This document shows, one piece after another, positions 35,110 through 64,000 of a stretch of 64,000 nt of DNA. The DNA comes from Escherichia phage PSa2. The number at the start of each line of letters is the position of its first letter. Position 1 is the stretch's first letter. Location of the stretch: sequence record OL770310. One strand, given 5' to 3'. Made by a program: the position numbers and the translations under genes. The notes under the pieces were generated by a model. The model saw nothing but the letters and a program-made list of their open reading frames with translations, was not told the origin of the DNA and did no database searches.

Positions 35110-35118
35110 ATAATTTAT

Positions 35119-35304: not shown

Positions 35305-35405
35305 ATCTATTTCCTCAGTTATTAATGAAAATGGTATCTGTGACTGAATTCAATATCAGTAATGATAGCTGGTTGGCTACCGGTTTACTTAACTCTACAC
35401 AGAAT

Positions 35406-35488: not shown

Positions 35489-35495
35489 CTAAAAT

Positions 35496-35750: not shown

Positions 35751-35989
35751 CCAACACGCTCCGGCAGGTCTTCCAGTTTATATTCAGTAGCCACATTAGC
35801 AGCATCTAGTAACAAACCCATATGTTTAAGAATTCTAGTGATAGCCTCGCCTTCTGCTTCTTCTACAAAGCAGCGTAGTTGCATGAAGTCAATACCACCA
35901 TCCATACCAGAGAAAATGTTAAGTAAGCGAAGCATTACCAGCTTACGTTCTTTCAATTCTTGTTCTGTCATGTTGCTTCTCCAGTTCAA
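35747..35989 (-). CDS. hypothetical protein
   Basis: 80-aa ORF. Confidence 0.45.
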   Translation of the reverse strand: MNWRSNMTEQELKERKLVMLRLLNIFSGMDGGIDFMQLRCFVEEAEGEAITRILKHMGLLLDAANVATEYKLEDLPERVG

Positions 35990-36000
35990 TTTATGAAATA

Positions 36001-36030
36001 ATTATACAGAACTTTAAGCGGTTAAGCAAC
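36001..36030 (-). promoter_or_regulatory. sigma70 early promoter
   Basis: promoter family motif. Confidence 0.55.
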
Positions 36031-36309
36031 TACATTTTTCAGAAATATGATGCCTTTCTTTTTCTTCTTATACTTCCACGTTAACGGGTTCTGTCTATTA
36101 TGAACGCTTGAGATCTTTGTCTCGTCAAAGTTCTTCAATACCATGTAATCACAGGCCAACTGTTCTAGTGGAATGTGATCTCCGTCAAAAGCGTAAACGT
36201 AAGGCTGTTGACTGGCACGATAATGATAGACTTTGTTAATTCTGCGTTTCAGTGACTTATCCGCACAGTAAATAAAGAAGTTTTCAGGATGCATCAGCAT
36301 CTCCTTCAA
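36022..36309 (-). CDS. hypothetical protein
   Basis: 95-aa ORF. Confidence 0.45.
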   Translation of the reverse strand: MKEMLMHPENFFIYCADKSLKRRINKVYHYRASQQPYVYAFDGDHIPLEQLACDYMVLKNFDETKISSVHNRQNPLTWKYKKKKKGIIFLKNVVA

Positions 36310-36311
36310 AT

Positions 36312-36386
36312 TGGTGCACCCTGTTCGAATTGAACGAACCTCTCAAGCTCTTCAGGCAAGCGCTAATCCATCTCAGCTAAAGGTGC
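36312..36386 (-). tRNA. tRNA-Phe (GAA)
   Basis: hand-folded: T-arm GTTCG-TTCAATT-CGAAC, loop CUGAAGA; weak anticodon stem. Confidence 0.45.
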
Positions 36387-36392
36387 AAATAT

Positions 36393-36470
36393 TGGCAAAC
36401 CTACTAGGACTCGAACCTAGACCGTACGGTTTTGGAGACCGACATGCTGTCCAGTAACACTCTAGGAATG
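36393..36470 (-). tRNA. tRNA-Trp (CCA) candidate
   Basis: anticodon arm UCGGU-CUCCAAA-ACCGU resembles bacterial tRNA-Trp; acceptor pairing poor, 5' end uncertain. Confidence 0.35.
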
Positions 36471-36477
36471 CAGAAAT

Positions 36478-36554
36478 TGGCGTCCTGTGCGGGGATCGAA
36501 CCCGCAAATCCTACCTTGAAAGGGTAGTGACTTTACCAGTTTGTCTAACAGGAC
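36478..36554 (-). tRNA. tRNA-Glu (UUC)
   Basis: hand-folded: acceptor 7/7, T-arm GCGGG-TTCGATC-CCCGC, loop CUUUCAA. Confidence 0.6.
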
Positions 36555-36561
36555 TTAAATT

Positions 36562-36652
36562 TGGTGTTGGATGATGGAGTCGAACCACCCGAGACCCTTC
36601 CGAGTCGGCAGATTTACAGTCTGCTTCGCTACCTCTACGATACTAATCCAAC
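36562..36652 (-). tRNA. tRNA-Tyr (GUA), long variable arm
   Basis: hand-folded: acceptor 7/7, anticodon arm GCAGA-CUGUAAA-UCUGC. Confidence 0.6.
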
Positions 36653-36777
36653 ATATTTGAATGAAAAGTAAGTCGGTTAAACTCAAGGTGGAATATTTCA
36701 GGATTTCCTGACTTTACCCATAAAAGTAACTCGCTTAGTTACTTCTCATTCAGATATGTTTTCCAAATTAGATAACT

Positions 36778-36807
36778 ATTATATCAAGTTTTGAAGGACT
36801 GAGCAAG
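36778..36807 (-). promoter_or_regulatory. sigma70 early promoter
   Basis: promoter family motif, degenerate. Confidence 0.4.
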
Positions 36808-36842
36808 TCAAATTTTAAAGAACTTGCTCAGTGCTACATCAG

Positions 36843-37118
36843 TTACTCGAAGCTAGGAGTGACACTCAGTTTGAATGGAAGCTCGAACACTTCTTCATAA
36901 TCATCATTGAGCGTAATTACACGACCTTCTAGCTTAGTCATGGTGATTTCGATATCAGCCCTTGCATCAGGAGCCATACCAGCTTCCACACATTTAGCTT
37001 TAACTTCCGGCAGAAGTTCTACATCGTAGAAATAAAGCCATTCAATCTCACCTTCCCAGCCACCCCAGGATTTACAAACAGCACTTTCAACACCAGTTGC
37101 AGTAACACGTTTTGACAT
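36843..37118 (-). CDS. hypothetical acidic protein
   Basis: 91-aa ORF. Confidence 0.5.
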   Translation of the reverse strand: MSKRVTATGVESAVCKSWGGWEGEIEWLYFYDVELLPEVKAKCVEAGMAPDARADIEITMTKLEGRVITLNDDYEEVFELPFKLSVTPSFE

Positions 37119-37148
37119 TCGTTAACTCCTTCATCAATTTATATAACT

Positions 37149-37179
37149 ATTATAACAGAAATCTTAAGTAAAAAGCAAG
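37149..37179 (-). promoter_or_regulatory. sigma70 early promoter
   Basis: promoter family motif. Confidence 0.5.
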
Positions 37180-37208
37180 TACATTTTTAAAATTTCTGCT
37201 TGGAGGAG

Positions 37209-37460
37209 TTAAACTCCTGATTCTTCAGCCAGATCAAGCCCAACCAACGTGATTGCCATAATAGCCGCGCCATGTTCTTTCTCTCCTAGCTCTTTGGCTT
37301 GAGTGAGAATATTAAGGAATTGCTTTTGAAAATCTGCAACTTCTTCTGTCATGCCTGCTTCAGCAATGATTCCTTTCAGCATAAAGCGTTGTGCCGTAAT
37401 TTCAGAATTAGCCATTTGTTTTCTCCAGTTGTTTAGAATGTAAGCCAAACTTAGGATCAT
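37209..37460 (-). CDS. hypothetical protein
   Basis: 83-aa ORF. Confidence 0.45.
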   Translation of the reverse strand: MILSLAYILNNWRKQMANSEITAQRFMLKGIIAEAGMTEEVADFQKQFLNILTQAKELGEKEHGAAIMAITLVGLDLAEESGV

Positions 37461-37566
37461 AGCGATCGTAAGTAGTACCGTTAGTTGAAGCCTTGATGCT
37501 ATGAAAACGACAGTACATAAATTTACGTAGTGCTTTCTTAATAGCTTTCATTTTATTTCCTTAATT

Positions 37567-37643
37567 TGGTAGGGGTGGTGGGATTCGAACCCACAAAACC
37601 TGAATTTTAAGTCCAGTACCTATGCCAATTCGATTACACCCCC
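37567..37643 (-). tRNA. class I tRNA with anticodon UAA by simplest fold (Leu-decoding)
   Basis: hand-folded: T-arm GTGGG-TTCGAAT-CCCAC, anticodon arm CUGGA-CUUAAAA-UUCAG, short variable loop. Confidence 0.4.
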
Positions 37644-37651
37644 ATGTAATC

Positions 37652-38005
37652 TTAGCGAATCTCTAAACCCTGGAAATATCGAGGGAATGGAGAGCCAACT
37701 TCAAAATTGATGCCCCAATTAAGTTCAACGAGTTCAGATTTATTAAGATCTAGGCCATTACCTTCAAAGATATAGCCGTAAACCGCAGGGAACATAGCTG
37801 CTAGATCTTCCATATCGGAATGAGCATTGTGTTCTTCACGGAACTGCTCAAACTCTTCAAAGAACTTTTCTAGGAAGAACTCAGGTACGATGAACGTTAC
37901 CACATCAGTAGAATCATCGGTACGATACACCGTAGCTTGGAACAAGCCAACACCTAAAAGGTTTATTGCCGGAGTAGTAAAAATATCCATCTTAGCCTCG
38001 CTCAA
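37652..38005 (-). CDS. hypothetical protein
   Basis: 117-aa ORF. Confidence 0.5.
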   Translation of the reverse strand: MSEAKMDIFTTPAINLLGVGLFQATVYRTDDSTDVVTFIVPEFFLEKFFEEFEQFREEHNAHSDMEDLAAMFPAVYGYIFEGNGLDLNKSELVELNWGINFEVGSPFPRYFQGLEIR

Positions 38006-38177
38006 TGTCTAGACAAATTGCATATTCAGGGTTGATACCAGTACCTTTACATGTAGGACATTCCCATTCTCTACAGAAAATATCCCCAGGTTCTGCATCA
38101 TCCTGCCTACCACCACCATGACAATCCTTACACCGACATTCTTCTAAGGCTTTCTTCATTTCATAGAATCTAGACAT
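37992..38177 (-). CDS. zinc-finger-like small protein
   Basis: 61-aa ORF; CRCKDCHG ... CPTCKGTG. Confidence 0.4.
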   Translation of the reverse strand: MSRFYEMKKALEECRCKDCHGGGRQDDAEPGDIFCREWECPTCKGTGINPEYAICLDIERG

Positions 38178-38194
38178 ATAGTCTCCTAGTTAAT

Positions 38195-38272
38195 TGGTGG
38201 CTCCCGGAGGATTCGAACCTACCTACCTTTCGCTTATGAGGCGACGGCTCATACCAAATGAGCTTGAGAACC
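38195..38272 (-). tRNA. tRNA, anticodon CAU (Met / fMet / Ile2 type)
   Basis: hand-folded: D-arm GCTC/GAGC, loop CUCAUAA. Confidence 0.5.
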
Positions 38273-38277
38273 AAATT

Positions 38278-38371
38278 TGGAGGAAGATGCCAGATTCGAA
38301 CTGGCACACCGTGTCTCCACAGCTACTGGCTGTTTAGCAAACAGCTCCCTTACCTTTAGGGTTAATCTTCC
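38278..38371 (-). tRNA. tRNA-Ser (GCU), long variable arm
   Basis: hand-folded: acceptor 7/7, anticodon arm GCUGU-UUGCUAA-ACAGC. Confidence 0.5.
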
Positions 38372-38386
38372 GAATTTATGAATATA

Positions 38387-38414
38387 TTATACAGAAAATT
38401 TCGGCATTAAGCAA
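38387..38414 (-). promoter_or_regulatory. sigma70 early promoter
   Basis: promoter family motif. Confidence 0.55.
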
Positions 38415-38422
38415 GTGAAATT

Positions 38423-38719
38423 TTACTGAACACTGCACTGATACACTTGTTTGATACGTGTCACTGACTTCTTAGTTGGATTGATAGAAGAACCTTGCCA
38501 CCAACGTGATTCTGAGCTGAGAACAGCACCAGGAACAGCTTGTTCTTTTGGCAGAACAATATCAAAACATTGCTCACCCATATTATCTTTAATGTGTGAC
38601 CAAATATCCAAAGTAAATCGTTCTAACTTATTACAAACCTGAACTTGACAAAGTTCCTGTTGCGGAGCAGCAAATACAGAAGTAGATACTAGAGTCAATG
38701 CAAGTACAGTGCGTTTCAT
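38423..38719 (-). CDS. secreted small protein (signal peptide)
   Basis: 98-aa ORF. Confidence 0.45.
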   Translation of the reverse strand: MKRTVLALTLVSTSVFAAPQQELCQVQVCNKLERFTLDIWSHIKDNMGEQCFDIVLPKEQAVPGAVLSSESRWWQGSSINPTKKSVTRIKQVYQCSVQ

Positions 38720-38749
38720 GTTTGATTCCTCTCTCGAATTTATAAATAT

Positions 38750-38778
38750 ATTATACAGAAATTTTCTATATTAAGCAA
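38750..38778 (-). promoter_or_regulatory. sigma70 early promoter
   Basis: promoter family motif. Confidence 0.55.
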
Positions 38779-38795
38779 GTGAAAATTTCTGTATA

Positions 38796-38818
38796 ATAGC
38801 CCTCTAAGCGAGGGCTAT
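38796..38818 (-). terminator. hairpin ATAGCCCTC-TAAGC-GAGGGCTAT downstream of pnuC-like gene
   Basis: 9-bp inverted repeat. Confidence 0.45.
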
Positions 38819-38825
38819 AACTACT

Positions 38826-39518
38826 TTATTTGTTAACGCGTACAAAGTATCCTTTATAAGCTCCAAGAATAGAGTTGCCTAAGAATACTAGCCACATTGC
38901 TAGGATTGCGTAAGATGCACCTGTAGATTGAGCAGTTACAAGCCAAATATATACAGTACCAATATTAATAGCAATCCAGATCAGCCACTGCTCGGCGTAC
39001 TGCTTAACCATAAGCCACATAGCGATCACACTACCTACCGCAGTAAATGCATCCAACATTGGGAATGGATCAGCCGTAGTAGCTAAGAAACTACCATACC
39101 CTAACGTGGCTACTGCTAGAATCCCTAGAGTTAGCAAAGCTTGGGCTTTAGTCAGAATCTTAGTTGGAACATCCGGCAGATTACTTGGCTTATTTTTATG
39201 CCATAAGTACATTCCATAAAACTGCATAGGAACGTAGTATAGCAGGTTTAGTGCAGCGTTACCATAAAGATCTGCGTTTAAAGCTGTAATACCATATGTA
39301 AGAACACCCACTAAGCCCCAAATATAGTTGGAAACACGTCCTTTTGCAACCAGAATAACACAAACCACATTGGTTATTGCAGTAGCCCAATCTAGAGCTG
39401 TACCATTATAGTTTGCTAAACTAATAAAGGCGACTGCTATAAACAGCCACAGATATTCCAGAGGTTTCCAGTTTTTAAAGTCATTTACGAGATAGTTAGT
39501 CATATTAAAACTCTCCAA
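38826..39518 (-). CDS. pnuC: nicotinamide riboside transporter PnuC-like
   Basis: 230-aa polytopic membrane ORF with PnuC-like pattern. Confidence 0.65.
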   Translation of the reverse strand: MESFNMTNYLVNDFKNWKPLEYLWLFIAVAFISLANYNGTALDWATAITNVVCVILVAKGRVSNYIWGLVGVLTYGITALNADLYGNAALNLLYYVPMQFYGMYLWHKNKPSNLPDVPTKILTKAQALLTLGILAVATLGYGSFLATTADPFPMLDAFTAVGSVIAMWLMVKQYAEQWLIWIAINIGTVYIWLVTAQSTGASYAILAMWLVFLGNSILGAYKGYFVRVNK

Positions 39519-40578
39519 CGTTAAAGTGATGAATCAGCCAGTCTACTGCGTTTACTGCTTCGTCCATACGAACTTTGTAGTCCGGAGAGTCGATGTAAAC
39601 AGTACGCCCTTCAGGGAACTGATTTGGAAATTCTTTCTTCATCTGCTCGAACAGTTCAGAAGTAATTGAACGATCGGAGTTAATACGTAAACCATCATCT
39701 ACCCACTTGACAGTAGGCGCTAGAACAATTACTAAATCGTAATGTTCTTCTTTTGCAATTGCTGTAACCACAGGGTTCTTACTATGTTCATAAAGTCTGT
39801 GGTAGAACTCAGTAATAAAAGCATTTGTATCCACAAACATGATCTTATTTGCAGTACGTTCTGCTTCAAACTCTAGCTCTTTGTGTCTGAACGCAATTTT
39901 ACTATAGTCTTCGCTGGTAAGCAGATTTTCGTTACCAACTAGATCAACTTCACAATACGTTCGGCCATATTCTTCTACCCACGAAGTGTTGTATAGCTTC
40001 GCAAGGTATTTTGTTAAAGTAGTCTTTCCTGAGCTTTCAGTCCCAATGATTACAACCTTACGCACGTAATCTTTACGAACTACGCTAGGAAGAAACTCCC
40101 AATACTTCATAAGATCATTACGAATCATTGTAGCTGAGACTGGAACACGAGTCCGATCAGAATCTACAATATAATGACCAAACTTCGGCAGATATTTCTT
40201 ATATTCTGCATCATAGTCTAGTTCGCTAGAGAAAATGGTGATCTCAGGCAAATGTCCGTAATTTTCATTAAGGATTCTAGCATATTCCGGCCAACCATTC
40301 GGATATTCAGGAATATCATCTTCAATAATGTACTCTACCGAAATGTGCTCAATATCCGCGTAAGTTTGTTCTAACCAACGAAGTCGATTCTTTAACTGTA
40401 ATACTTCCTGATCACGTGTGTTCTGCTTATCCAGCCAACGATTATCATGACTAACTACAATAATAACTCGTTCACACATAGTTGCTGCTGTGTTTATTAG
40501 GTTAATATGACCACGCGTTAATGGCGCGAACTTACCAATTACTAGACCAGTCTTAATCATATTTGATTCCTCTCTCAA
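39505..40578 (-). CDS. nadR: NadR-like bifunctional NMN adenylyltransferase / ribosylnicotinamide kinase
   Basis: 357-aa ORF; N-terminal GKFAPLTRGH motif, C-terminal Walker A GTESSGKTT. Confidence 0.65.
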   Translation of the reverse strand: MREESNMIKTGLVIGKFAPLTRGHINLINTAATMCERVIIVVSHDNRWLDKQNTRDQEVLQLKNRLRWLEQTYADIEHISVEYIIEDDIPEYPNGWPEYARILNENYGHLPEITIFSSELDYDAEYKKYLPKFGHYIVDSDRTRVPVSATMIRNDLMKYWEFLPSVVRKDYVRKVVIIGTESSGKTTLTKYLAKLYNTSWVEEYGRTYCEVDLVGNENLLTSEDYSKIAFRHKELEFEAERTANKIMFVDTNAFITEFYHRLYEHSKNPVVTAIAKEEHYDLVIVLAPTVKWVDDGLRINSDRSITSELFEQMKKEFPNQFPEGRTVYIDSPDYKVRMDEAVNAVDWLIHHFNVGEF

Positions 40579-40590
40579 ATTTATAAATAT

Positions 40591-40619
40591 ATTATACAGA
40601 TAATTTAGCGTTCAAGCAA
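40591..40619 (-). promoter_or_regulatory. sigma70 early promoter
   Basis: promoter family motif. Confidence 0.55.
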
Positions 40620-40776
40620 TCGAATTTTTAAACTTTTTAGTGGAAAAATCTCAAGGCATTTAGTGGTAGCACGTTGTTGCTACAATAATAGTATATGATT
40701 CTAAAGAATTAAAGAATTAAATACTAAAGACCTTAGTTGAATAACTTATGGGCTTTTCTTTTGCCTTAAATACAGA

Positions 40777-40808
40777 AAAGCCCGCGCTCTCGGAGGAAAC
40801 GCGGGCTT
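40777..40808 (-). terminator. hairpin AAAGCCCGCG-N13-CGCGGGCTT
   Basis: GC-rich inverted repeat downstream of SPFH gene. Confidence 0.5.
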
Positions 40809-40831
40809 GGTTCGAAGATTACGTGTAACTA

Positions 40832-41776
40832 TTACTTGTTACGCATATCCATGATCATTTGACCATCGTAGCCAGTACCAACAACAGTCTGCGGTACACC
40901 ACCTTGGTATTTTTCAGCACGAAGCATTTCAACTTCCAGCTGCTTCCAACGAATCATTTCAGGAGTAATGGTACGTTGCAGAGCGGCGTTAGCTTCAGCC
41001 TCTTTCTTAGCTGCGTACAGTTTAGCATCTGCGTCACGTTCGTTAGCTACTGCCATGTTTTCACGAGCGGAACGATCTGCCTCAGCTTGCTTAACTTTCT
41101 GCTGTGCTTCTTGTTCAACACGAGCCAGTTCAGCTTTTGCAGCGTTAACTTGTTCTTCACGAACTTTGGTGTTCTGTACCTGTTCCATGATTACCGGTGG
41201 CAGAGTAATATCCTGAAGGAATACTTGCTTAACGGTGTAACCATAAGGACGCGCATACTCTTCTACTTCTTGCTGAATAGCGGTTTGCAGTTGAGCCTGA
41301 ATCTTAGCGTCGAACAGATCTTGTGCTTTTGGTACAGACTTACCAAACTCACGAATCGTAGATAGCATCTTCTCTTCAACGTACTTGTTCAGAGCTTGAT
41401 CCTGAGTACCTGCGTTAACACGGTTCATAGGAGCTTTAGCTCCATCAAACTGCAACATAACGGTAATGTCAACAGTAGACTTAAACTTATCCTGGCTAGG
41501 AACCTGAAGTTTATCCAGTTTCATAGAAATATCTTTCGTACTAAAAGTATCAAAAGAAGCAAATGGGTTAACAATATGGAAGCCTGGCAATACAGGATTA
41601 GGGCTAACTTTACCCAGGAAAGTTTGGGTCTTAACAGTACCATCCTGAACAACTGTATAGGAATTGAGAGCCAGAATAAGAGCACCAAGACCAACAGCAG
41701 CACCAACACCCCAACGTTTAATAGTACGAATTACTTTTTGCTCAGAAGTCAGTTCTTTAGTGTTTTTAGTAAACAT
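40832..41776 (-). CDS. SPFH/band-7 (prohibitin/HflC-like) domain membrane protein
   Basis: 314-aa ORF; N-terminal TM, SPFH-like core, Ala/Glu/Gln-rich coiled coil. Confidence 0.55.
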   Translation of the reverse strand: MFTKNTKELTSEQKVIRTIKRWGVGAAVGLGALILALNSYTVVQDGTVKTQTFLGKVSPNPVLPGFHIVNPFASFDTFSTKDISMKLDKLQVPSQDKFKSTVDITVMLQFDGAKAPMNRVNAGTQDQALNKYVEEKMLSTIREFGKSVPKAQDLFDAKIQAQLQTAIQQEVEEYARPYGYTVKQVFLQDITLPPVIMEQVQNTKVREEQVNAAKAELARVEQEAQQKVKQAEADRSARENMAVANERDADAKLYAAKKEAEANAALQRTITPEMIRWKQLEVEMLRAEKYQGGVPQTVVGTGYDGQMIMDMRNK

Positions 41777-41787
41777 ATATTTCCTTA

Positions 41788-41988
41788 TTATTTAGAAGAG
41801 TTAGCTACTACAGTTACTTTAGTTGCAGAAATAAACAGGCTAGCATCCACAGCAAATTCAGGAGCTTTGATATCTCCATTATGAAATATGACTATACCGG
41901 AGACTACTTCAAATGCTAGTGCTGTAACATCGGTGGTATTTACTTGTGAATGTTCACCTACTACTTTTACTATATATCGTGTTTTCAC
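41788..41988 (-). CDS. hypothetical protein
   Basis: 66-aa ORF. Confidence 0.4.
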   Translation of the reverse strand: MKTRYIVKVVGEHSQVNTTDVTALAFEVVSGIVIFHNGDIKAPEFAVDASLFISATKVTVVANSSK

Positions 41989-42014
41989 TTTATTTTCCTA
42001 GCAGTTAATAAAAT

Positions 42015-42089
42015 TGGCCGAGGTGACAGGATTCGAACCTGCATAAAGGAATTTAGAAGACTCCTGCCTATCCCTTAGACTACACCCCG
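42015..42089 (-). tRNA. tRNA-Arg (UCU)
   Basis: hand-folded: D-arm GUCU/AGGC, anticodon arm GGAGU-CUUCUAA-AUUCC. Confidence 0.55.
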
Positions 42090-43574: not shown

Positions 43575-43606
43575 ATTTCGCTTCCTCTCATTAATTTATG
43601 AAAGTA

Positions 43607-43634
43607 TTATACAGAAATTTAAGGCTTTAAGCAA
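43607..43634 (-). promoter_or_regulatory. sigma70 early promoter
   Basis: promoter family motif. Confidence 0.55.
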
Positions 43635-45733: not shown

Positions 45734-45773
45734 AATTATTTTCCTTTTGTTGTTCTCTCAAATTTATGAATAT

Positions 45774-45802
45774 ATTATACAGAATTTTGGAGCTGAAAGC
45801 AA
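45774..45802 (-). promoter_or_regulatory. sigma70 early promoter
   Basis: promoter family motif. Confidence 0.55.
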
Positions 45803-55141: not shown

Positions 55142-55903
55142 TTACACCTTCCCCATATCCTTAAAGATATCGTAGAATGCTTTAGACTCTGGTGAGCGAA
55201 CGTTGTCGATCAGTTCGATCATAGAGAAAGGAGAGTTTTCGTACTTCTCATAGACTTCCATAAGAAGTGCTAGACCTGAATCACCCTTGATGTCTTTCTG
55301 AGCTATATCCCCACAGATAATTAAACGACAATCTTGTCCTACACGAGTCAGGAGACAGATCATTGCTTCAACGGAGATATTCTGAGCTTCATCGACAATA
55401 ACATAGGAGTTGTTGAAAGTTCGGCCACGGGCATGTTCGATAGCCAGGAATTTGATTTTCTGACGTTCGACATATCCTTTGTAGGCGTGATCACCGATTG
55501 CCCATTTCATGCCATCGGCTATTGGTTCCAACCAAGGCTCTAGCTTTTCTGCTAGATCACCTGGGAGCATACCAAGAGATTTACCTAGAGGTTCGTTCGG
55601 ACGCACGAGGATCACTTGCTCAATATCTGAGTGAATGTCTACGAGTTCCTGAGCTGCAATAACGGATGGAATAAAGGTTTTACCAGTACCTGGTTCACCA
55701 ATACCCACAGTCACTGTGTTGTTCTTGATCATATTGATATATGATTTTTGCTCACGGTTTTTACCAACTAGGGATTTAGCAACTGGATTGGCGTAATCAC
55801 CAGAGAAATCTGCTTGAATTACGTTACTCTCATACTTGTTGCCACGCTTTCTTGAACCATTGCGGTTCTCTCTTTTTTGACGTGCTTTTCCCATAAATAA
55901 CAC
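55142..55903 (-). CDS. phoH: PhoH-like ATPase
   Basis: 253-aa ORF; Walker A GEPGTGKT, PhoH-like core. Confidence 0.8.
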   Translation of the reverse strand: MLFMGKARQKRENRNGSRKRGNKYESNVIQADFSGDYANPVAKSLVGKNREQKSYINMIKNNTVTVGIGEPGTGKTFIPSVIAAQELVDIHSDIEQVILVRPNEPLGKSLGMLPGDLAEKLEPWLEPIADGMKWAIGDHAYKGYVERQKIKFLAIEHARGRTFNNSYVIVDEAQNISVEAMICLLTRVGQDCRLIICGDIAQKDIKGDSGLALLMEVYEKYENSPFSMIELIDNVRSPESKAFYDIFKDMGKV

Positions 55904-55967
55904 TCCTATAGTGTACTTCGCTAACAGAGGATCAACAAAAAGATCTTGTTTATCAACTTACAAATAT

Positions 55968-55997
55968 ATTATACCAATATATGCGGGAGAAAGCAAC
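55968..55997 (-). promoter_or_regulatory. sigma70 early promoter for phoH operon
   Basis: -10 complement at 55968-55973, -35 complement at 55991-55996. Confidence 0.55.
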
Positions 55998-56188
55998 TAC
56001 AATTTTAAATAAGCCTATGATATTGCATTTAAATAAAAAATTTGCTTGCTTTTATTGGGAGATGTATGGTACTAGATAATCATTTTATATCGCGTACACG
56101 GGCGCGTGATTATACTATTTTTAATAGAGGTTGGCAAATAAAATTTTTTGACTCAGATCAATTTACAGAATGTTATAGTAAAATATTG

Positions 56189-56217
56189 TTGACATCCGCC
56201 TTCGAATGAGTTATAAT
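56189..56217 (+). promoter_or_regulatory. consensus sigma70 promoter TTGACA-17-TATAAT for nrdD
   Basis: TTGACA at 56189-56194, TATAAT at 56212-56217. Confidence 0.65.
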
Positions 56218-56246
56218 AGTAGTCTTAGTTAGAGAAGGAGGGTATA

Positions 56247-58121
56247 ATGAATCGCAATGAAGAACTAAAGTATAAAGGAATGCAGTCCTTGATTCGAAAC
56301 TGCAAAGAAATTATCGAAGGTTCAGCAGATGAAGAACTGCTGTTTAATAATGCCAATAAGCCCTCAGAACGTTTCCCTACACAAAGGGACATGCTTGCAG
56401 GGGAATTGAGTAAATATCTGATTCTGGAAGAAATGCCAATCCAGATTCGAAATGCTCACATGATTGGTGATATTCACTTCCATGATGCTGATTACGCTGC
56501 GTTAGGTATGACTAACTGTTGCCTGGTTGCTTTGGAAGATATGTTGAAAAACGGTATGAAGGTTGGTAATGCTGAAATCAGTACGCCAAACTCCATTACT
56601 ACTGCGGCTGCTATTACAGCTCAGATTATTACTCAGGTTAGCTCCCATCAATATGGTGGTACTTCTGTAGACCGATTAGATGAAGTACTGGCTCCTTATG
56701 TTCGTAAGTCTTATGATAAGAATCATGCGTTTGCAAAGCGTTGGACTAAGGATGAAGCCAAAGCATCTGTAATGGCTACGGAAATGACTGAGAAAGAAGT
56801 TTACGATGCCTGTCAAGGTCTAGAGTATGAAATCAATACGATGTTCAACTCTAATGGTCAGAGTCCATTTATTACCTTTGGTTTTGGTCTAGGAACTTCC
56901 TGGGAAGCACGTCTTGTACAGAAAGCAATCTTAGAAGTGCGTATGGATGGTTTGGGTATCAATAAACGTACAGCTATCTTCCCTAAACTGGTATTTGTTT
57001 TGCGTGATGGCGTAAACATGAAACCTGGTGATGTTAACTATGATATCAAGAAGTTAGCTATGAAATGTACTGCTGAACGTATGTATCCTGACTACATCAG
57101 TTATGATAAGGTTGTAGAAGTTACGGGAGACTACAAAGTCTCTATGGGCTGTCGTTCATTCCTGGCTGCTGCGGAAGATGGTGAAACTTCTGGTCGTAAC
57201 AACTTAGGCGTTGTTTCCGTAAACCTTCCTCGAATCGCTATCGAAGCGGAAGGAAATATTGATCTATTCTTCGATCTGCTTGAGCTGCGTGTGGATACCG
57301 CGTTAAAAGCATTGGAGTGGAGGGTTGATCGCTTAAAATACATTCAAGCTAAAGCTGCGCCCATCCTCTATATGTCAGGAGCCTTTGGATTACGTCTGGG
57401 ACCCGATGAATATGTATTTGATCATTTCTACAAGCGTGCTTCTGTATCTCTAGGATATATTGGTTGCCACGAAATGTTGCAGCTCATGTTTGGTAAAGAT
57501 GTAGATACAATGTCTGAGTCTTGTATCAAGTTCGTTCAACGTGTGCTACAATATATGCGTGATCGTGCTGATCAGAAGAAGGAAGAGACTCAATTAGGTT
57601 ATAGTCTGTATGCTACACCATCTGAATCTCTATGTGATCGCTTTTGTCGCCTAGACCGTGAGTATTTCCCAGAGCATGAAGATATTCTGGCTAAAGGATA
57701 TTACACTAACTCCCATCACCTTGATGTAGAACGTAAGGTTGCTCCAAACGTGAAGTTTGATTATGAGTCTAACTTTACCCCTATTGCTTCTGGTGGGTGC
57801 ATTTCCTATGTGGAACTACCGGATATGAAACGATTCCCAGATGCGCTGGAATGGGTTATTAACTATGCCGCAAGTAAAGTTCATTACTTCGGTATTAATA
57901 CTCCAGTAGACTCTTGTGGGGAATGTGGGTTCTTGGGTGAAACTATAGCTTCTGAGGATGGTTTCAAATGCCCTATTTGTGGCAACCATGATCCTGAGAC
58001 TCTTGAGGTAACTCGTCGAGTTTGTGGCTATCTTGGAAATCCAGGTGCTCGTCCGTTTAACCCAGGTAAACAACATGAGGTTATGGGTCGAGTGAAACAT
58101 CAGGACATTCGCGCTAAATAA
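56247..58121 (+). CDS. nrdD: anaerobic ribonucleoside-triphosphate reductase
   Basis: 624-aa ORF; C-terminal glycyl-radical motif RRVCGYLG; RBS AGGAGGG. Confidence 0.85.
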   Translation: MNRNEELKYKGMQSLIRNCKEIIEGSADEELLFNNANKPSERFPTQRDMLAGELSKYLILEEMPIQIRNAHMIGDIHFHDADYAALGMTNCCLVALEDMLKNGMKVGNAEISTPNSITTAAAITAQIITQVSSHQYGGTSVDRLDEVLAPYVRKSYDKNHAFAKRWTKDEAKASVMATEMTEKEVYDACQGLEYEINTMFNSNGQSPFITFGFGLGTSWEARLVQKAILEVRMDGLGINKRTAIFPKLVFVLRDGVNMKPGDVNYDIKKLAMKCTAERMYPDYISYDKVVEVTGDYKVSMGCRSFLAAAEDGETSGRNNLGVVSVNLPRIAIEAEGNIDLFFDLLELRVDTALKALEWRVDRLKYIQAKAAPILYMSGAFGLRLGPDEYVFDHFYKRASVSLGYIGCHEMLQLMFGKDVDTMSESCIKFVQRVLQYMRDRADQKKEETQLGYSLYATPSESLCDRFCRLDREYFPEHEDILAKGYYTNSHHLDVERKVAPNVKFDYESNFTPIASGGCISYVELPDMKRFPDALEWVINYAASKVHYFGINTPVDSCGECGFLGETIASEDGFKCPICGNHDPETLEVTRRVCGYLGNPGARPFNPGKQHEVMGRVKHQDIRAK

Positions 58122-58162: not shown

Positions 58163-58219
58163 TTGCTTTCTAGCTAAAACTTATGTATAATTGATTTATA
58201 AATTTGAGAGGAGAAAGCT

Positions 58220-60512: not shown

Positions 60513-60941
60513 ATGTTCGATAATCTTTTCATGAAAGAGGTAAATCCTATGCTCCTCAACTTCTGGCGTTCTCTCCCTAATGGTATGTATAATGAAACCA
60601 TCAATCTGCTCAAGATTTGGTGTGAGAATAACGATATCTTCTTATCCTTTAAAGGCCCACTAGAGGAAGCTCCGTGTATTGGAGTTAGCGTGGATTTAGG
60701 GGAGGGAGTAGAAGAGATTGTAGACTGGAAAGAACTCGATGAAATGGGTCTGGTTTTTGCCTTGAACCATAAGCTGTTTATGCCTGCAAATCACCGTCTT
60801 ATTGTAAATTATCGCACTGGTGAAGCTCCTGCTTTCCAGGTAAATGAACGTGAGGGCTGGTCATATTCGCCCGAGGAAGTAAATGAGGGGATTCAGAAAC
60901 TTCGTCGTTTCGGGTATATGATCCCAGGTTTAACTGCTTAA
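60513..60941 (+). CDS. hypothetical protein (paralog pair member 1)
   Basis: 142-aa ORF; shares WxELxxMGL...TGExP...PGL pattern with next ORF. Confidence 0.5.
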   Translation: MFDNLFMKEVNPMLLNFWRSLPNGMYNETINLLKIWCENNDIFLSFKGPLEEAPCIGVSVDLGEGVEEIVDWKELDEMGLVFALNHKLFMPANHRLIVNYRTGEAPAFQVNEREGWSYSPEEVNEGIQKLRRFGYMIPGLTA

Positions 60942-60950: not shown

Positions 60951-61346
60951 ATGGAACAAGTATTTTGGCGTCAGATAGATCCTAGTTTGGTAGAGCGTGC
61001 TGAGGGGCTCCTTGCACGTTGGTTGGGGGTTGACAAGGTTAGTGTAACATTTCCGTTTACTTCTGTAACAGACCCTAGTGTAGGTGTCTTTGTGGACGAA
61101 GATGAAGATGATGGTTGGGAAGCTGACTGGAATGAATTGTCCAGCATGGGCTTGATTGTTGCCCTCAACTTCTCTATATTCCACCCACGTGGTTTAGCTA
61201 TTACACGTGATCCCGAAACCGGTGAATCCCCTTATCTTTTGCAAGTAGAAGATGATATTTGGGAGTACACCGAAGGTATTCTCGAAGAAGCTAAAGGTCA
61301 ATTAAATCGTATTGGGATCTATGTCCCGGGCCTAAATGATGATTGA
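60951..61346 (+). CDS. hypothetical protein (paralog pair member 2)
   Basis: 131-aa ORF with AGGAGG RBS. Confidence 0.5.
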   Translation: MEQVFWRQIDPSLVERAEGLLARWLGVDKVSVTFPFTSVTDPSVGVFVDEDEDDGWEADWNELSSMGLIVALNFSIFHPRGLAITRDPETGESPYLLQVEDDIWEYTEGILEEAKGQLNRIGIYVPGLNDD

Positions 61347-61369
61347 TTTTCATTAGCTCAATCCTGATT

Positions 61370-61397
61370 ACCGAGTCATTTTGGCTCGGTTTTCTCT
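61370..61397 (+). terminator. hairpin ACCGAG-N9-CTCGGT followed by TTTCTCT
   Basis: read directly after 60951-61346. Confidence 0.45.
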
Positions 61398-61437
61398 GTG
61401 CTCAAAGACACTGATAGCACCTTCGGAAAAATTTTAC

Positions 61438-61466
61438 TTGCAGGATGCTCAAAATCTTGATATAAT
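61438..61466 (+). promoter_or_regulatory. sigma70 promoter TTGCAG-17-TATAAT
   Basis: TTGCAG at 61438-61443, TATAAT at 61461-61466. Confidence 0.5.
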
Positions 61467-61962
61467 ATTTATATTGAATTGAGAGACATTAGTAAAAATT
61501 GATTTTGCTAATTTTTCTTGTTTACAATCCGCAATACGGAACAGTTAGGCTGCCCCATTAAGGGTTGTTTTAACTATTACTAGTGTTTATACTGCATTAG
61601 TTAATTATCAATTAAGTGATCTGCGTACCCTGAATTCGGAAAGGTAAATCCAAACCGTGCATATTTAGCTCGTTATATAGGCAGAGCTTTATATGGGGGT
61701 GCGAACGAAAAGAGCAGCGAATGGTGACACGTCCAGTAGCCACCTACCAATAGGATAGTGAGGGCAATCAGAATCGGCTTAGCGGCCAATGACCTAGGTT
61801 CTGATCTGGATAAGAGTTAAGAGAGCGCAGCACTGAGGTATGATAACTTATTCATACTGCTTGATGATGATTAATGTTTGTGTAAATGGTAGTAATAGTT
61901 GTTCTATTCTTTTGAATAGTCCTAAAGAAAGATATTCGAATAACCAACATAGGAGTATTGTT

Positions 61963-64000
61963 GTGTTCTCAATCCTACAAGGCCACGCAGGATTTTCCAG
62001 AGATAAAGCTACTGGCATCTGGAAAGAGATCAAAGTGGAAGATTATACCTTTGCAAAGCGATTCTCTAAAGAGCATCCAGAAGGTAAACCAGCTTCCATG
62101 CCCTTCAAATTTGATGTACTTGAAGAACTTGACCCGCAAAACCTTGCTGAAATGTTACCTATCATGCGTCGTCTTACCAAAGACCCGCATATTGTAGCTA
62201 TTCGGGGTAAATGTCTAGCTCCAAAAGATAATGTGCGTCGTACCAGGGGAAACTTTAACGTATCCAATCCTAGTCATATTATTGCTATGGACGTGGATGG
62301 TATTGTAGATACTGGTGGCTATGACAAGTTTAATCTTGTTGGCATGGCACGTCATATTATTAAGATGTTGAATAGTATTAGTGAGGATATGTTTCCTCTT
62401 GATGCAGGGTTTATTGCCCATGCATCGTCTTCGGCTGGGTTAAAACCAGGTATCCGAATGCACTTAATGCTAGAATCTAATGTCAAGGTAACGCAGGGAC
62501 AGTTAAAGTTCTTATTTACATCTATCAATGATAGTAGTAAGCAAAAGTACGGCTTTGATATTGCTGACTTAGCTTATTATTCTTCTGTTCAGCTTCACTA
62601 TTTCGCAGATCCCTTATTTGATGATGGTATAGTCGATCCGTTTAAAGCGGAGAATAAACCACGTCTTGTGTATGTTAAGGGTTCGAAGGTAAATCTACCT
62701 AATAACCTAGTTGACTTTGAAACAACTAGAGGTGAGTTTAAAGAAGAGTTCTACTCCTTACTTGACCAAATTAAAGGCAAGAAGGCTGCATCTGATAAAG
62801 TGGAAGAAACCATCAGCGAACTAGAAGAAGCTGAGGATGGAGTGTACCTGCGTATTATTCCAAAACTTTATCACAGAGCGTTAGAAGATGGTGTTGACTT
62901 TACGTGGTTAGAACGTGAGATTAAACCAGCTTTATCTGAGTATATTGCGACTAAAGATAATAGTCGTAATATTCAAGATTACTTTAATAACGGTCGTAAG
63001 CAGGCTCTCAAAGCCTTTGTAAATAACTCCAAACGTGAGATTCCACCAAACTTAAAAGGTGTACCATTAAAACGTCTAGACACAGATTCTCCACCAGAAG
63101 TTCCATACCTGAAAATTAACATTGTACCACCAAAAGGACATTTAACATTTGTTAAGGCAAGTCTTGGTACGGGTAAAACTACAGCAGTAACTAAGTGGCT
63201 AGATGCAGGTGTTCTTCCAGGGAACTTTATTGCAATCACAAATACTAGAGCACTTGTATCTTCTAACGCGAAGAAATTCGGTGCTGGCCAGTATGATAAG
63301 TCAGTTGATATGCTGAACTTCAAACGTGGTGCTATTGATCGTATGTCTTCAACTATTCACTCTATCCATAAGTTCAAGAGCTTTGTGGGTCAGATTGATA
63401 CGATCTTTATTGATGAATGTGACGCAGTAATGAATGATCTGTTATTCGCTCCGGTTGTTAAAAACCGTCGTGAATGTATTCAGGTTCTTCGTGATATCCT
63501 TATTACTGCTAAAACTGTTATCTTATCTGATGGTGATATCAGTGCAGAAACGATTGAAGCCTATGGTTCTTTGATTGATTTTGATAAACCAGTTGCATTC
63601 TATAATCATCACCGTAAAATGCTGGCGAAAGCTCACGCTTATGAATTCCCTGACGAATCCAGTATTTGGGTTGCACTTCAAACATCTCTAGAGATGGGTG
63701 AGAAGTCAATCCTAGTATCTGACTGTGGACCAGATGAACTGAATGAAAAGGGAATGGCGTTACGTCGTAATACTGGTGCGTTAGTTAAAGAAATTCACTC
63801 AAACTCTACGTCTGATATAGATATCCGACGTATTCTGGATTATACAACTAATGAGCTAATTGATCAACAGATTGATTGTTTGTTATGTAGTCCATCTGTA
63901 ACGAGTGGTGTTGACTTTAACTATTTTGATAACGTATTCGTAATCACTAGAACCTCAAACCAAGCGCCAAACATGCGTTTTCAAGCAATCAGGCGCGACC
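61963..64000 (+). CDS. replication protein, P-loop NTPase (primase/helicase-like), 5' partial in window
   Basis: open frame from GTG 61963 preceded by AGGAG, runs to window end (>675 aa); Walker A LGTGKTT, Walker B IFIDECD. Confidence 0.5.
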   Translation, partial: MFSILQGHAGFSRDKATGIWKEIKVEDYTFAKRFSKEHPEGKPASMPFKFDVLEELDPQNLAEMLPIMRRLTKDPHIVAIRGKCLAPKDNVRRTRGNFNVSNPSHIIAMDVDGIVDTGGYDKFNLVGMARHIIKMLNSISEDMFPLDAGFIAHASSSAGLKPGIRMHLMLESNVKVTQGQLKFLFTSINDSSKQKYGFDIADLAYYSSVQLHYFADPLFDDGIVDPFKAENKPRLVYVKGSKVNLPNNLVDFETTRGEFKEEFYSLLDQIKGKKAASDKVEETISELEEAEDGVYLRIIPKLYHRALEDGVDFTWLEREIKPALSEYIATKDNSRNIQDYFNNGRKQALKAFVNNSKREIPPNLKGVPLKRLDTDSPPEVPYLKINIVPPKGHLTFVKASLGTGKTTAVTKWLDAGVLPGNFIAITNTRALVSSNAKKFGAGQYDKSVDMLNFKRGAIDRMSSTIHSIHKFKSFVGQIDTIFIDECDAVMNDLLFAPVVKNRRECIQVLRDILITAKTVILSDGDISAETIEAYGSLIDFDKPVAFYNHHRKMLAKAHAYEFPDESSIWVALQTSLEMGEKSILVSDCGPDELNEKGMALRRNTGALVKEIHSNSTSDIDIRRILDYTTNELIDQQIDCLLCSPSVTSGVDFNYFDNVFVITRTSNQAPNMRFQAIRRD

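What the first reader, a model, noticed from the sequence alone, without database searches (positions are those of the whole stretch)
61467..61962. Long (~500 nt) untranslated leader before a GTG-initiated primase/helicase-like gene
A plus-strand promoter (61438-61466) is followed by about 500 bp with no convincing ORF before the GTG start at 61963 of a large P-loop replication protein. The leader could hold regulatory RNA structure, small ORFs or an origin-associated element.
Basis: seen in the sequence. Interest (0 to 1): 0.35.

Follow-up and report, generated by a model that had tools for sequence, protein, structure and literature searches.

The report
Conserved structured RNA before T5 helicase
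The roughly 490-base "empty" stretch in front of the phage T5-type D2 replication helicase gene is a long, elaborately folded RNA that is conserved across T5-like phages, matches no catalogued RNA family, and has no known function.

Summary
The window is a T5-like phage (Demerecviridae). A T5-type early promoter (-35 at 61438-43, extended -10 at 61458-66) is followed by about 490 nt with no conserved ORF. Then come a Shine-Dalgarno site (61951-55) and the GTG start (61963) of gene D2, a primase-like domain fused to a UL9-type SF2 helicase.

The leader is a multi-domain structured RNA:
- a 5'-terminal hairpin;
- a near-invariant hairpin (AUACGGAACAGUUAGGCUGCCCCAU);
- a roughly 330-nt domain closed by a 35-bp AU-rich rod, enclosing two three-way junctions and an invariant CUUAGCGG loop;
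- a terminal hairpin.

On 16 related leaders, 29 of 147 predicted pairs show compensatory double changes, against 5.8±1.7 in shuffles and 1-6 in slid controls. Pairing is 98% canonical on the + strand and 84% on the - strand. The architecture recurs upstream of D2 in Klebsiella, Pectobacterium and Providencia phages. The motif hairpin alone also recurs in Proteus and Aeromonas relatives.

Nothing in Rfam 15 matches, and I found no paper or annotation describing it.

The function is not shown. My best guess is an RNA-level module tied to D2, either controlling its expression or acting as a protein platform, and possibly released by RNase III. The main rival is an origin-associated transcript that forms an R-loop or primer.

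The parts
61370..61390 (+). Intrinsic terminator hairpin plus T-run that ends the upstream DUF7415 gene operon.
   Evidence: 9 pairs, then TTTCTCTG. Annotated as a terminator in T5 and HdH2. Conserved.
61426..61466 (+). T5-type early promoter: A/T tract 61426-37, -35 TTGCAG 61438-43, extended -10 TGATATAAT 61458-66. Inferred transcription start at about A61473.
   Evidence: Sequence. T5 promoter annotations. Conserved. Promoter module repeated 7 times in the window.
61481..61519 (+). P1, the 5'-terminal hairpin (61481-97 pairs with 61503-19). Its 5' strand, UGAGAGA, overlaps the conserved early-promoter downstream motif.
   Evidence: helix 1. Cross-lineage compensatory changes. Retained when the promoter is replaced, as in L025.
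61524..61568 (+). PL, a near-invariant hairpin (61524-45 pairs with 61549-68). Core motif AUACGGAACAGUUAGGCUGCCCCAU at 61534-58.
   Evidence: helix 2. 96% identical in My1, whose D2 is only 65% identical. Covariation GG/CC to AG/CU in Klebsiella. Unique in the window.
61571..61611 (+). 5' arm of the AU-rich rod: outer helix 61571-90, inner helix 61594-61611.
   Evidence: repeat I1. (helices 3 and 4; A-U to G-C and many G-U transitions).
61615..61626 (+). Helix Pa, 5' strand (core CUGCG 61621-25). It closes the GC-rich core and pairs with 61825-34.
   Evidence: helix 5 (4 covarying pairs). Six different complementary versions across lineages.
61627..61700 (+). 5' subdomain, a three-way junction: P2 (61627-31 with 61696-700), P2a (61637-57) and P2b (61660-95).
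   Evidence: helices 6-9. The same topology occurs with different sequence in group C, L065, L079, My1 and Klebsiella.
61701..61730 (+). Conserved junction GCGAACGAAAAGAGCAGC plus GAAUGGUGAC. The latter corresponds to the GAGAAGUGAU junction motif of other lineages.
   Evidence: Invariant between the window and phiR2-01. Motif seen.
61731..61811 (+). 3' subdomain, a three-way junction: Pc (61731-36 with 61806-11), Pd (61739-65), Pb (61767-75 with 61797-805) and Pm GGCU-UAGC-GGCC (61776-87). The CUUAGCGG motif lies at 61778-85.
   Evidence: helices 13-16 (11 covarying pairs). CUUAGCGG is present at the corresponding place in every locus fetched by then that carries the D2 gene (L001-L035). Pb is flanked by the motif in 7 of 12 lineages as a contiguous 7-9 bp helix.
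61825..61834 (+). Helix Pa, 3' strand (CGCAG 61826-30).
   Evidence: helix 5.
61837..61858 (+). Hairpin Pe, inserted in the 3' arm of the rod.
   Evidence: helix 17 (3 covarying pairs). A positionally equivalent hairpin with a loop of the type RUUGCCAYC occurs in other lineages.
61861..61901 (+). 3' arm of the rod: inner helix 61861-77, outer helix 61882-61901.
   Evidence: helices 3 and 4.
61904..61919 (+). Terminal hairpin Pt (CUAUUC/GAAUAG). It is not followed by a U-run.
   Evidence: helix 18 (invariant within the lineage). Different complementary versions occur in L065, L079 and PR1. No terminator is called there.
61951..61965 (+). Shine-Dalgarno AGGAG (61951-55) and GTG start codon (61963-65) of D2.
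61963..64000 (+). Gene D2, which runs off the window end: an N-terminal primase-like domain fused to a UL9-type SF2 helicase.

Best explanation
The leader is a functional, multi-domain structured RNA of roughly 440 nt (61481-61919). It is transcribed by host sigma-70 RNA polymerase from a strong T5 early promoter, as the 5' part of the D2 mRNA.

Shown:
- It folds on the + strand into a 5'-terminal hairpin (P1), a near-invariant hairpin (PL), and a roughly 330-nt domain. In that domain an AU-rich rod of about 35 bp closes a GC-rich core made of two three-way junctions.
- Loop and junction sequences are invariant while helices change by compensatory substitution.
- In this phage no terminator separates the RNA from D2.
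- No protein is encoded in it.

Inferred (my commitment):
- The RNA acts as RNA, as a specific protein-binding platform functionally coupled to the D2 replication-initiation helicase.
- P1 protects the 5' end from 5'-end-dependent decay.
- The rod is a plausible RNase III site. Cleavage there would release the folded core and re-tailor the D2 mRNA.
- The invariant loops (PL, CUUAGCGG, GAGAAGUGAU) are the contact sites of a phage or host protein, D2 itself being the obvious candidate. That protein would set the dosage or timing of D2, or would work with D2.

I hold the first layer (a conserved functional RNA structure) at about 0.9. I hold the specific mechanism at about 0.35-0.4.
For: Structure:
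- The + strand MFE has z = -4.3, against -2.6 for the - strand.
- RNAalifold on 16 leaders gives 147 pairs, 29 of them with both sides changed and the pair kept.
- The count of structure pairs: 98.0% of cells are paired. 29 pairs covary, against 5.8±1.7 in shuffles (0 of 500 reach the observed value) and 1-6 when partners are slid. The covariation score is 0.108 against 0.069 in shuffles and 0.011-0.032 when slid.
- Group C analysed alone: 99.9% paired, 5 compensatory and 13 one-sided pairs, against 0-1 compensatory pairs in shifted controls.
- Strand test: 311 G-U cells against 9 A-C cells, which gives 98.0% canonical pairing on the + strand and 84.3% on the - strand.
- Across lineages, P1 and PL have 13 of 37 pairs with compensatory changes.
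- Pa, Pb, Pm, Pe and Pt occur in different complementary versions in Klebsiella phages, My1, L065, L079 and PR1. Pm and Pb also recur in Stubb and Aeromonas TS3.

Context:
- The element always lies directly upstream of D2 on the same strand, although the upstream neighbours differ.
- No terminator lies between the RNA and D2 in this phage.
- P1 stays at the 5' end even where the promoter has been replaced or a homing endonuclease gene is inserted upstream.

Not protein-coding.

Not a known RNA family: no Rfam 15 match even at E<=10 for the window region and E<=1 in 12 divergent loci.
Against: - No expression data were available, so the transcription start and any processing are inferred.
- No expression platform is visible. 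There is no attenuator terminator, and in the consensus fold the Shine-Dalgarno site sits in a hairpin loop rather than being sequestered.
- In relatives the RNA is separable from the D2 mRNA. Proteus phage Stubb has a perfect TTGACA-18-TATAAT promoter 37 nt before the D2 ATG. Aeromonas TS3 and Vibrio 70E34 have terminator-like hairpins between the noncoding region and D2. This weakens a purely cis-regulatory role.
- The core is dimorphic. Window type and group C type share only 59% identity at equal length, while the flanking RNA shares 91% and D2 shares 83%. That is unusual for a simple cis-regulator.
- Homology of the Vibrio leaders is unproven. The Ceto leader has z = +0.2.
- Much of the covariation comes from one divergent sequence, phiR2-01, together with the window-group (3 distinct rows) versus T5-group split. 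The events are few and related by descent.
Confidence: 0.4

Rival explanations
1. Origin-associated transcript. The promoter and structured RNA form part of a T5 replication origin placed next to the initiator gene. The folded, purine-rich transcript would form a persistent R-loop or be processed into a leading-strand primer, as with ColE1 RNA II or T4 oriF/oriG. Alternatively it would recruit D2.
For: - D2 combines a primase-like N-terminal domain with a UL9-type origin-binding-protein helicase. Origins commonly sit beside initiator genes (general knowledge).
- Synteny with D2 is kept even where the RNA has its own terminator or D2 has its own promoter. An origin explains this better than a leader does.
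- In Vibrio and Aeromonas relatives the region lies exactly between divergently transcribed blocks, nrdD and D2.
- The RNA-like strand is G- and A-rich at 61650-61850 (GC skew up to +0.43, AT skew +0.33), and the flanks are AT-rich at 26-34% GC.
- The length of about 490 nt from promoter to the end resembles RNA II.
- T5 origins have never been mapped at sequence level. Only multiple internal origins seen by electron microscopy are cited.
Against: - There are no iterons or significant direct repeats.
- There is no conserved antisense promoter. The site at 62070-62042 is not conserved.
- In this phage the GC-skew minimum and strand switch lie at about 56 kb, 5.5 kb away.
- An R-loop primer alone does not need 15 or more conserved helices and invariant loops.
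- There is no direct evidence of initiation here.
Confidence: 0.25
2. Trans-acting ncRNA with a function unrelated to D2, for example a decoy or sponge against a host defence or host RNA-binding protein. It would be excised from the leader, and its position before D2 would be historical.
For: - The core is dimorphic and mosaic while the flanks are conserved. Group C shares 59% identity in the core against 91% in the flanks. phiR2-01 combines a window-type 5' subdomain with a Klebsiella-type 3' subdomain. This pattern is typical of loci under diversifying selection or cassette exchange.
- The long rod is a plausible RNase III excision stem (helices 3 and 4).
- The RNA is an independent transcription unit in TS3, and D2 has its own promoter in Stubb.
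Against: - Synteny with D2 is strict across the whole family.
- No complementary target for the invariant motifs exists elsewhere in the 64-kb window.
- No known defence system is implicated.
Confidence: 0.15
3. Generic mRNA stabiliser or spacer. The structure only protects or insulates the D2 mRNA and has no specific ligand.
For: - A 5'-terminal hairpin is a classical stabiliser.
- The RNA is co-transcribed with D2 here.
Against: - Invariant loop and junction sequences persist across phages whose D2 proteins are only 55-73% identical.
- A conserved multi-junction architecture is far more than stability requires.
Confidence: 0.08
4. Hidden coding sequence or a longer D2. Either a small protein is encoded in the leader, or D2 starts upstream at ATG 61841 as one relative annotates it.
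For: - The D2 reading frame is open from about 61840.
- SpoonbillGilly annotates that start and two small CDSs.
Against: - The stretch 61841-61962 is not conserved as protein.
- Homologues begin at the codon equivalent to 61963, with ATG in My1 and Klebsiella phages and a Shine-Dalgarno site in front.
- No ORF is shared across lineages.
- Substitutions follow base-pairing rather than codons.
Confidence: 0.02

Closest known systems
Large 'ornate' phage-associated ncRNAs of unknown function (ROOL, GOLLD)
   Same: It is several hundred nucleotides long and phage-encoded, with multi-junction architecture, invariant loops and junctions, covarying helices and an unknown function.
   Different: There is no sequence or structure match to their Rfam models. 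Here the RNA is a 5' leader fixed in front of one particular gene and is restricted, as far as seen, to Demerecviridae.
ColE1 RNA II pre-primer and T4 oriF/oriG origin transcripts
   Same: A strong promoter drives a structured, non-coding transcript of about 500 nt next to replication functions. The RNA-like strand is purine-rich.
   Different: No antisense regulator promoter is conserved. No origin has been mapped here. RNase H or R-loop involvement is untested. Here the RNA continues into an mRNA.
RNase III processing stems of T7 early mRNAs and rRNA operons
   Same: A long, imperfect double-stranded stem (two coaxial helices, about 35 bp) is formed by sequences flanking a folded domain within a phage early transcript.
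   Different: Cleavage is untested. T7 sites are short hairpins between genes, not stems enclosing a 200-nt core.
Phage translational operators (T4 gene 32, gene 43, regA) and riboswitch-type leaders
   Same: These are 5'-leader RNA structures in front of a replication gene, and autoregulation is plausible.
   Different: This element is 5-10 times larger than those operators. No expression platform (terminator or Shine-Dalgarno sequestration) is evident. No Rfam riboswitch matches.
phi29 pRNA and HEARO/omega RNA-type protein-partner RNAs
   Same: A structured phage or mobile-element RNA is encoded beside the nucleic-acid motor or nuclease it serves. HEARO, like this RNA, lies in the 5' UTR of its partner.
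   Different: This is pure analogy. There is no homology and no evidence that D2 binds the RNA.

Membership tests
Any Rfam 15 family (4227 covariance models, including riboswitches, RNase P, 6S, tmRNA, group I/II introns, ROOL, GOLLD, HEARO) | A covariance-model match at or near the family's gathering score. | tested here: not met
   Across the window only tRNAs reach gathering score. At E<=10, positions 61300-62050 give only four weak matches (13-16 bits), all over the terminator region 61300-61397. At E<=1, 12 divergent homologous loci give nothing in the leader.
Conserved structured RNA (generic criteria) | Compensatory base changes exceed controls and pairing is strand-specific. | tested here: met
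Riboswitch or attenuator leader | An expression platform: an intrinsic terminator or Shine-Dalgarno-sequestering helix that alternates with the aptamer. | tested here: not met
   No terminator lies between 61473 and 61962. The Shine-Dalgarno site lies in the loop of a small hairpin in the consensus fold. Alternative folds were not explored exhaustively.
ColE1 RNA II-type origin | An antisense regulatory RNA promoter within the pre-primer. | tested here: not met
   The only good - strand promoter-like site (62070-62042) is not conserved in relatives.
ColE1 RNA II-type or T4-type R-loop origin | A persistent RNA-DNA hybrid, and DNA synthesis starting at the processed 3' end. | not testable with these tools
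   This needs DRIP-seq, marker-frequency analysis or 2D gels.
Iteron-type replication origin | Several direct repeats that serve as initiator binding sites. | tested here: not met
   Only two-copy chance-level repeats of 9-16 nt were found.
RNase III processing stem | At least about 20 bp of near-continuous double-stranded RNA. | tested here: met
   Helices 3 and 4 give 19 + 16 pairs separated by a 3-nt internal loop. Cleavage itself cannot be tested here.
5'-terminal stabiliser hairpin (ompA type) | A stem-loop within a few nucleotides of the 5' end. | tested here: inconclusive
   P1 starts about 8 nt after the inferred transcription start. The start is inferred, not mapped.
Protein-coding gene or small ORF | An ORF conserved in frame and position across relatives. 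| tested here: not met
D2 as a primase-helicase (AEP-like N-terminal domain plus helicase) | N-terminal domain homologous to the primase domains of primase-helicases, with catalytic DxD, H and D residues. | tested here: inconclusive
   Remote homologues (E from 1e-9 to 1e-3) carry PriCT-2, D5_N/Pox_D5, DUF5906 or VapE-like C-terminal parts. Invariant D110, D112, S155, H167 and D202. No Pfam or PDB sequence match to a primase was found. The single-sequence AlphaFold model was unusable, with pLDDT 38.6.

The most novel reading that the evidence does not exclude
The RNA is an obligate partner of the D2 primase-helicase, either as a ribonucleoprotein initiator or as an RNA-defined origin. The folded leader, excised at its rod, would bind D2 and either target it to the locus through an R-loop or supply the 3' end that the primase-like domain extends. 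T5 replication initiation would then be specified by a structured RNA rather than by protein-DNA iterons. The two 'allelic' core types would be specificity variants.
Probability: 0.12. Interest if true: 0.9.

Novelty: new variant of a known kind. Interest (0 to 1): 0.62.

Why it matters
T5 is a classical model phage, and its relatives are widely used in phage therapy and biocontrol. Its replication origins and the control of its replication genes are still unmapped at sequence level.

A large structured RNA, conserved across much of the family and fixed in front of the initiator-like D2 helicase, is a concrete and testable handle on that question. It would also add a new class to the short list of large bacterial and phage RNAs with complex folds.

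In practice it corrects annotations. Spurious small CDSs and an over-extended D2 start occur in deposited genomes. It also marks a region that should not be treated as dispensable spacer when T5-like phages are engineered.

Tried and rejected
- Rfam at permissive thresholds on the window and on 12 relatives: nothing.
- ARAGORN: no tRNA or tmRNA in the leader.
- RNase P-like reading of CAGAAUCGGCUUAG: a resemblance recalled from memory, not supported by Rfam. The motif is a simple hairpin loop.
- Antisense promoter at 62070-62042: not conserved.
- Iterons or direct repeats: none.
- MITE or transposon reading of the long inverted repeat: rejected, because internal helices covary and G-U pairs are strand-specific.
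- Targets complementary to the invariant motifs elsewhere in the window: none.
- Global MAFFT or anchored alignment of all lineages followed by RNAalifold: the alignment was too poor in the core. I therefore did not build a covariance model. Cross-lineage support for the core rests on inspecting per-lineage folds and on a contiguous-helix test that is significant in only 7 of 12 lineages.
- The search for homologous proteins for the D2 N-terminal domain returned only two fragments.
- A metagenome scan added few new lineages.
- AlphaFold on a single sequence was unusable. The PDB profile search was empty.
- One of my own shuffle scripts timed out.
- Literature searches found nothing on this leader, no T5 transcription-start or RNA-seq map in the held library, and no paper containing the motif sequences. 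Bourguignon 1976, on T5 origins, is not held.
- The 86-nt insertion found in some relatives is not repeated in the window and is not notably structured.

Full report
**What the window is.** The region is 99% identical to Escherichia phage SpoonbillGilly and about 90% identical to T5 and Tequintavirus genomes. In all, 538 phage records match, every one of them from T5-like phages (Demerecviridae). The window carries 29 tRNA genes at 29-42 kb. The gene that starts at 61963 is T5 D2 (T5.108 / T5p106). D2 is the 'unusual bipolar helicase' of Wong et al. 2013 (PMC3632103). Its only Pfam match is the herpesvirus origin-binding-protein helicase family, PF02399. Its only matches among solved structures are UL9-type proteins.

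**Checking the observation.**
- A terminator hairpin (61370-61390) ends the upstream operon of two DUF7415 genes.
It is preceded by an A/T tract, conserved in all aligned relatives, and annotated as a promoter in two T5 records.
- It belongs to a repeated early-promoter module, TATAAT-N(5-18)-TGAGAG, with 7 copies in the window against 0.28 expected. By analogy with T5 promoter PN25 (from my own knowledge), the start is about A61473.
- GTG 61963 is the true start. AGGAG lies 7 nt upstream. The N-terminus MFSIL(E/Q)GH is conserved, and Pectobacterium My1 and Klebsiella phages have ATG at that codon.
- The in-frame ATG at 61841 used in the SpoonbillGilly annotation, and its two small CDSs, fall in non-coding sequence.
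- No ORF is conserved across nine lineages.

**What is there.** The leader is a structured RNA.
- The + strand folds with z = -4.3, and none of 100 dinucleotide shuffles folds as well. The - strand gives z = -2.6.
- I aligned the window with 14 sequences of the window and T5 lineages plus Yersinia phage phiR2-01 (alignment A3). RNAalifold predicts 147 pairs in 18 helices, and 29 pairs keep pairing after changes on both sides.
- With the pair-counting tool, 98.0% of cells are standard pairs. The 29 covarying pairs compare with 5.8±1.7 in 500 column shuffles, none of which reaches 29, and with 1-6 when the 3' partners are slid by 1-3 columns. The covariation score is 0.108, against 0.069 in shuffles and 0.011-0.032 when slid.
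- My own script gave the same result.
- A second lineage, group C (which includes DT57C-type phages), analysed separately is 99.9% paired. It has 5 compensatory and 13 one-sided changes, against 0-1 compensatory in shifted controls.
- G-U cells outnumber A-C cells 311 to 9. The pairing is therefore 98.0% canonical on the + strand and only 84.3% on the - strand. The folding strand is the one downstream of the promoter.
- Caveat: the sequences are related, and many compensatory events come from phiR2-01 and from the split between the window group and the T5 group. The number of independent events is modest.

**Anatomy (window coordinates).**
- P1, a 5'-terminal hairpin: 61481-97 pairs with 61503-19.
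- PL, a hairpin: 61524-45 pairs with 61549-68. It carries AUACGGAACAGUUAGGCUGCCCCAU (61534-58). That motif is 96% identical in phage My1, although the D2 proteins are only 65% identical.
- An AU-rich rod of two coaxial helices: 61571-90 with 61882-901, and 61594-611 with 61861-77.
- Helix Pa, which closes a GC-rich core: 61615-26 with 61825-34.
- A 5' three-way junction (61627-61700).
- A conserved junction (61701-30).
- A 3' three-way junction (61731-61811). Its arm Pb/Pm presents the loop of GGCU-UAGC-GGCC.
- Hairpin Pe (61837-58).
- Terminal hairpin Pt (61904-19).
- About 30 nt further on come the Shine-Dalgarno site and the start codon. No terminator intervenes.

**Distribution.**
- Every Demerecviridae relative examined has a long non-coding gap upstream of D2. 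The sizes are about 600 nt in Klebsiella Sugarlandvirus, about 470-620 nt in My1 and Providencia PR1, about 700 nt in Proteus Stubb, 730-1100 nt in Vibrio phages, and 1600 nt in Aeromonas TS3.
- The octamer CUUAGCGG occurs once, at the corresponding place, in every locus fetched by then that carries the D2 gene (L001-L035). It also occurs in Stubb and, in two copies plus a UUUAGCGG variant, in TS3.
- Per-lineage folds show the same order of elements in the enterobacterial-type lineages. Their helix sequences differ but remain complementary. Pa, for example, occurs as CUGCG/CGCAG, CUGUG/CACAG, CCAUA/UAUGG, CUACA/UGUAG, CUGUA/UACAG and GCUGG/CCGGC.
- In Stubb and Aeromonas TS3 I traced only the Pm/Pb motif hairpin.
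- Across four lineages, P1 and PL have 13 of 37 pairs with compensatory changes.
- The helix flanking the invariant loop is a contiguous 7-9 bp stem in 7 of 12 lineages and is bulged in the others.
- Homology of the Vibrio leaders is not established. They show only UAGCG-containing loops by eye, and the Ceto leader has z = +0.2.

**An unusual feature.** The inner rod and core exist in sharply different forms at the same length. The window and group C share 83% nucleotide identity in D2 and 91% in P1, PL, the outer rod and Pt. They share only 59% in 61584-61889. phiR2-01 combines a window-type 5' subdomain with a Klebsiella-type 3' subdomain. The subdomains therefore behave as exchangeable cassettes between conserved flanks.

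**How it may work.**
- What is shown is a conserved RNA fold that is co-transcribed with D2 in this phage.
- Nothing shows what it does.
- A simple riboswitch or attenuator is unlikely, because no expression platform is visible.
- A purely cis-acting leader is weakened by the relatives. Stubb has a perfect consensus promoter 37 nt before the D2 ATG, downstream of its 700-nt structured region, which has z = -2.8. TS3 ends its structured region (z = -3.05) with a strong hairpin and U-run about 80 nt before D2. Vibrio 70E34 has two terminator-like hairpins there.
- The persistent adjacency to D2, whatever the transcript linkage, points to a functional tie to D2 or to the locus. That tie could be an RNA partner or regulator of D2, or an origin beside its initiator gene.
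I hold this at about 0.4.
- I put the origin-transcript model at about 0.25.

**Evidence bearing on the origin model.**
- The N-terminal domain of D2 has remote homologues (E from 1e-9 to 1e-3) whose C-terminal parts are PriCT-2, D5_N/Pox_D5, DUF5906 or VapE-like. These are classical primase-helicases. DxD, H and D residues are invariant. D2 therefore looks like a primase-helicase initiator.
- In Vibrio and Aeromonas phages the region lies at the divergent nrdD/D2 junction.
- The RNA-like strand is purine-rich and is flanked by AT-rich DNA.
- Against the model: there are no iterons and no conserved antisense promoter. In this phage the GC-skew minimum and strand switch lie at about 56 kb.

**Comparison with what is known, and novelty.**
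- No Rfam 15 family matches, even at permissive thresholds, in the window or in 12 divergent relatives.
- The T5, DT57C, HdH2 and phiR2-01 records annotate nothing between the promoter and D2.
- Five literature searches and a search for the motif strings found no description. The held library is incomplete, so an earlier description in a subscription journal cannot be excluded.
- I rate it as a new class within a known kind, namely large structured phage RNAs and 5' leaders. It is not a categorically new system, because no new mechanism has been demonstrated.

Noticed in passing
window 17071-17097, 29968-29994, 40572-40596, 43585-43611, 45755-45779 (- strand); 58186-58210, 61461-61485 (+ strand): A repeated T5 early-promoter module, TATAAT-N(5-18)-TGAGAG, occurs 7 times against 0.28 expected. 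The 5' strand of leader hairpin P1 reuses the conserved downstream TGAGAG motif.
   Followed up: partly
L016, L003, L018, L033 (insertion after the position equivalent to window 61511): A module of about 86 nt (…GAAGCTGACAAGGGATTTACGGCGAGAGGAATCGATGACCCGTAAAT…) is inserted between P1 and PL. It appears sporadically in three different lineages and is bounded by a TTTTTCTT duplication. It is not repeated in the window and folds weakly (z = -1.4).
   Followed up: partly
relatives L012, L015, L025; phage records NC_048203 (mar003J3) and MT843274 (BB1); equivalent to window ~61362-61461: Some relatives carry an insertion of about 600 nt upstream of the leader. In mar003J3 and BB1 a homing endonuclease gene is annotated at the match. 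The insertion replaces the terminator and promoter but leaves the RNA intact from UGAGAGA onward.
   Followed up: partly
window 61381-61482 (+), 61612-61743 (-), 61841-61962 (+): In the near-identical phage SpoonbillGilly (PP925828) two small 'hypothetical protein' CDSs and a D2 start 122 nt too far upstream are annotated here. All three appear to be gene-caller artefacts.
   Followed up: yes
window 61963-63102 (D2 residues 1-380): The N-terminal domain of D2 has no Pfam match. It is remotely homologous to the N-terminal domains of PriCT-2/D5/VapE-type primase-helicases. D110, D112, S155, H167 and D202 are invariant, which suggests an AEP-like primase domain fused to the UL9-type helicase.
   Followed up: partly
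window 60513-60941 and 60951-61346: Two tandem paralogous genes, each with two DUF7415 repeats, lie immediately upstream of the leader. Their function is unknown.
   Followed up: no
window ~55900-56250: Gene orientation switches from - to + here, and the cumulative GC skew reaches its minimum. In Vibrio and Aeromonas relatives this divergent junction directly abuts the noncoding region upstream of D2. In enterobacterial phages about 5 kb of + strand genes (Sir2-like, DUF7415) lie in between.
   Followed up: partly
window 29209-42089 (- strand): A cluster of 29 tRNA genes, including three tRNA-Met and duplicated Gln, Ala, Gly, Lys, Leu, Ser and Arg.
   Followed up: no
L067 (Proteus phage Stubb) 705-733 and 1435-1464; L085 (Aeromonas TS3) ~2165-2225: Stubb has two perfect sigma-70 consensus promoters, one before the long noncoding region and one just before D2. 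TS3 has a 1.6-kb noncoding region with two CUUAGCGG hairpins plus a UUUAGCGG variant, ending in a strong terminator. This suggests tandem or expanded versions of the RNA.
   Followed up: partly
window 61499-61528: A second promoter-like site (TTGATT-18-TACAAT, 9 of 12 matches) lies inside the invariant P1/PL region. The number of such sites in the region is at chance level, so it was not pursued.
   Followed up: no
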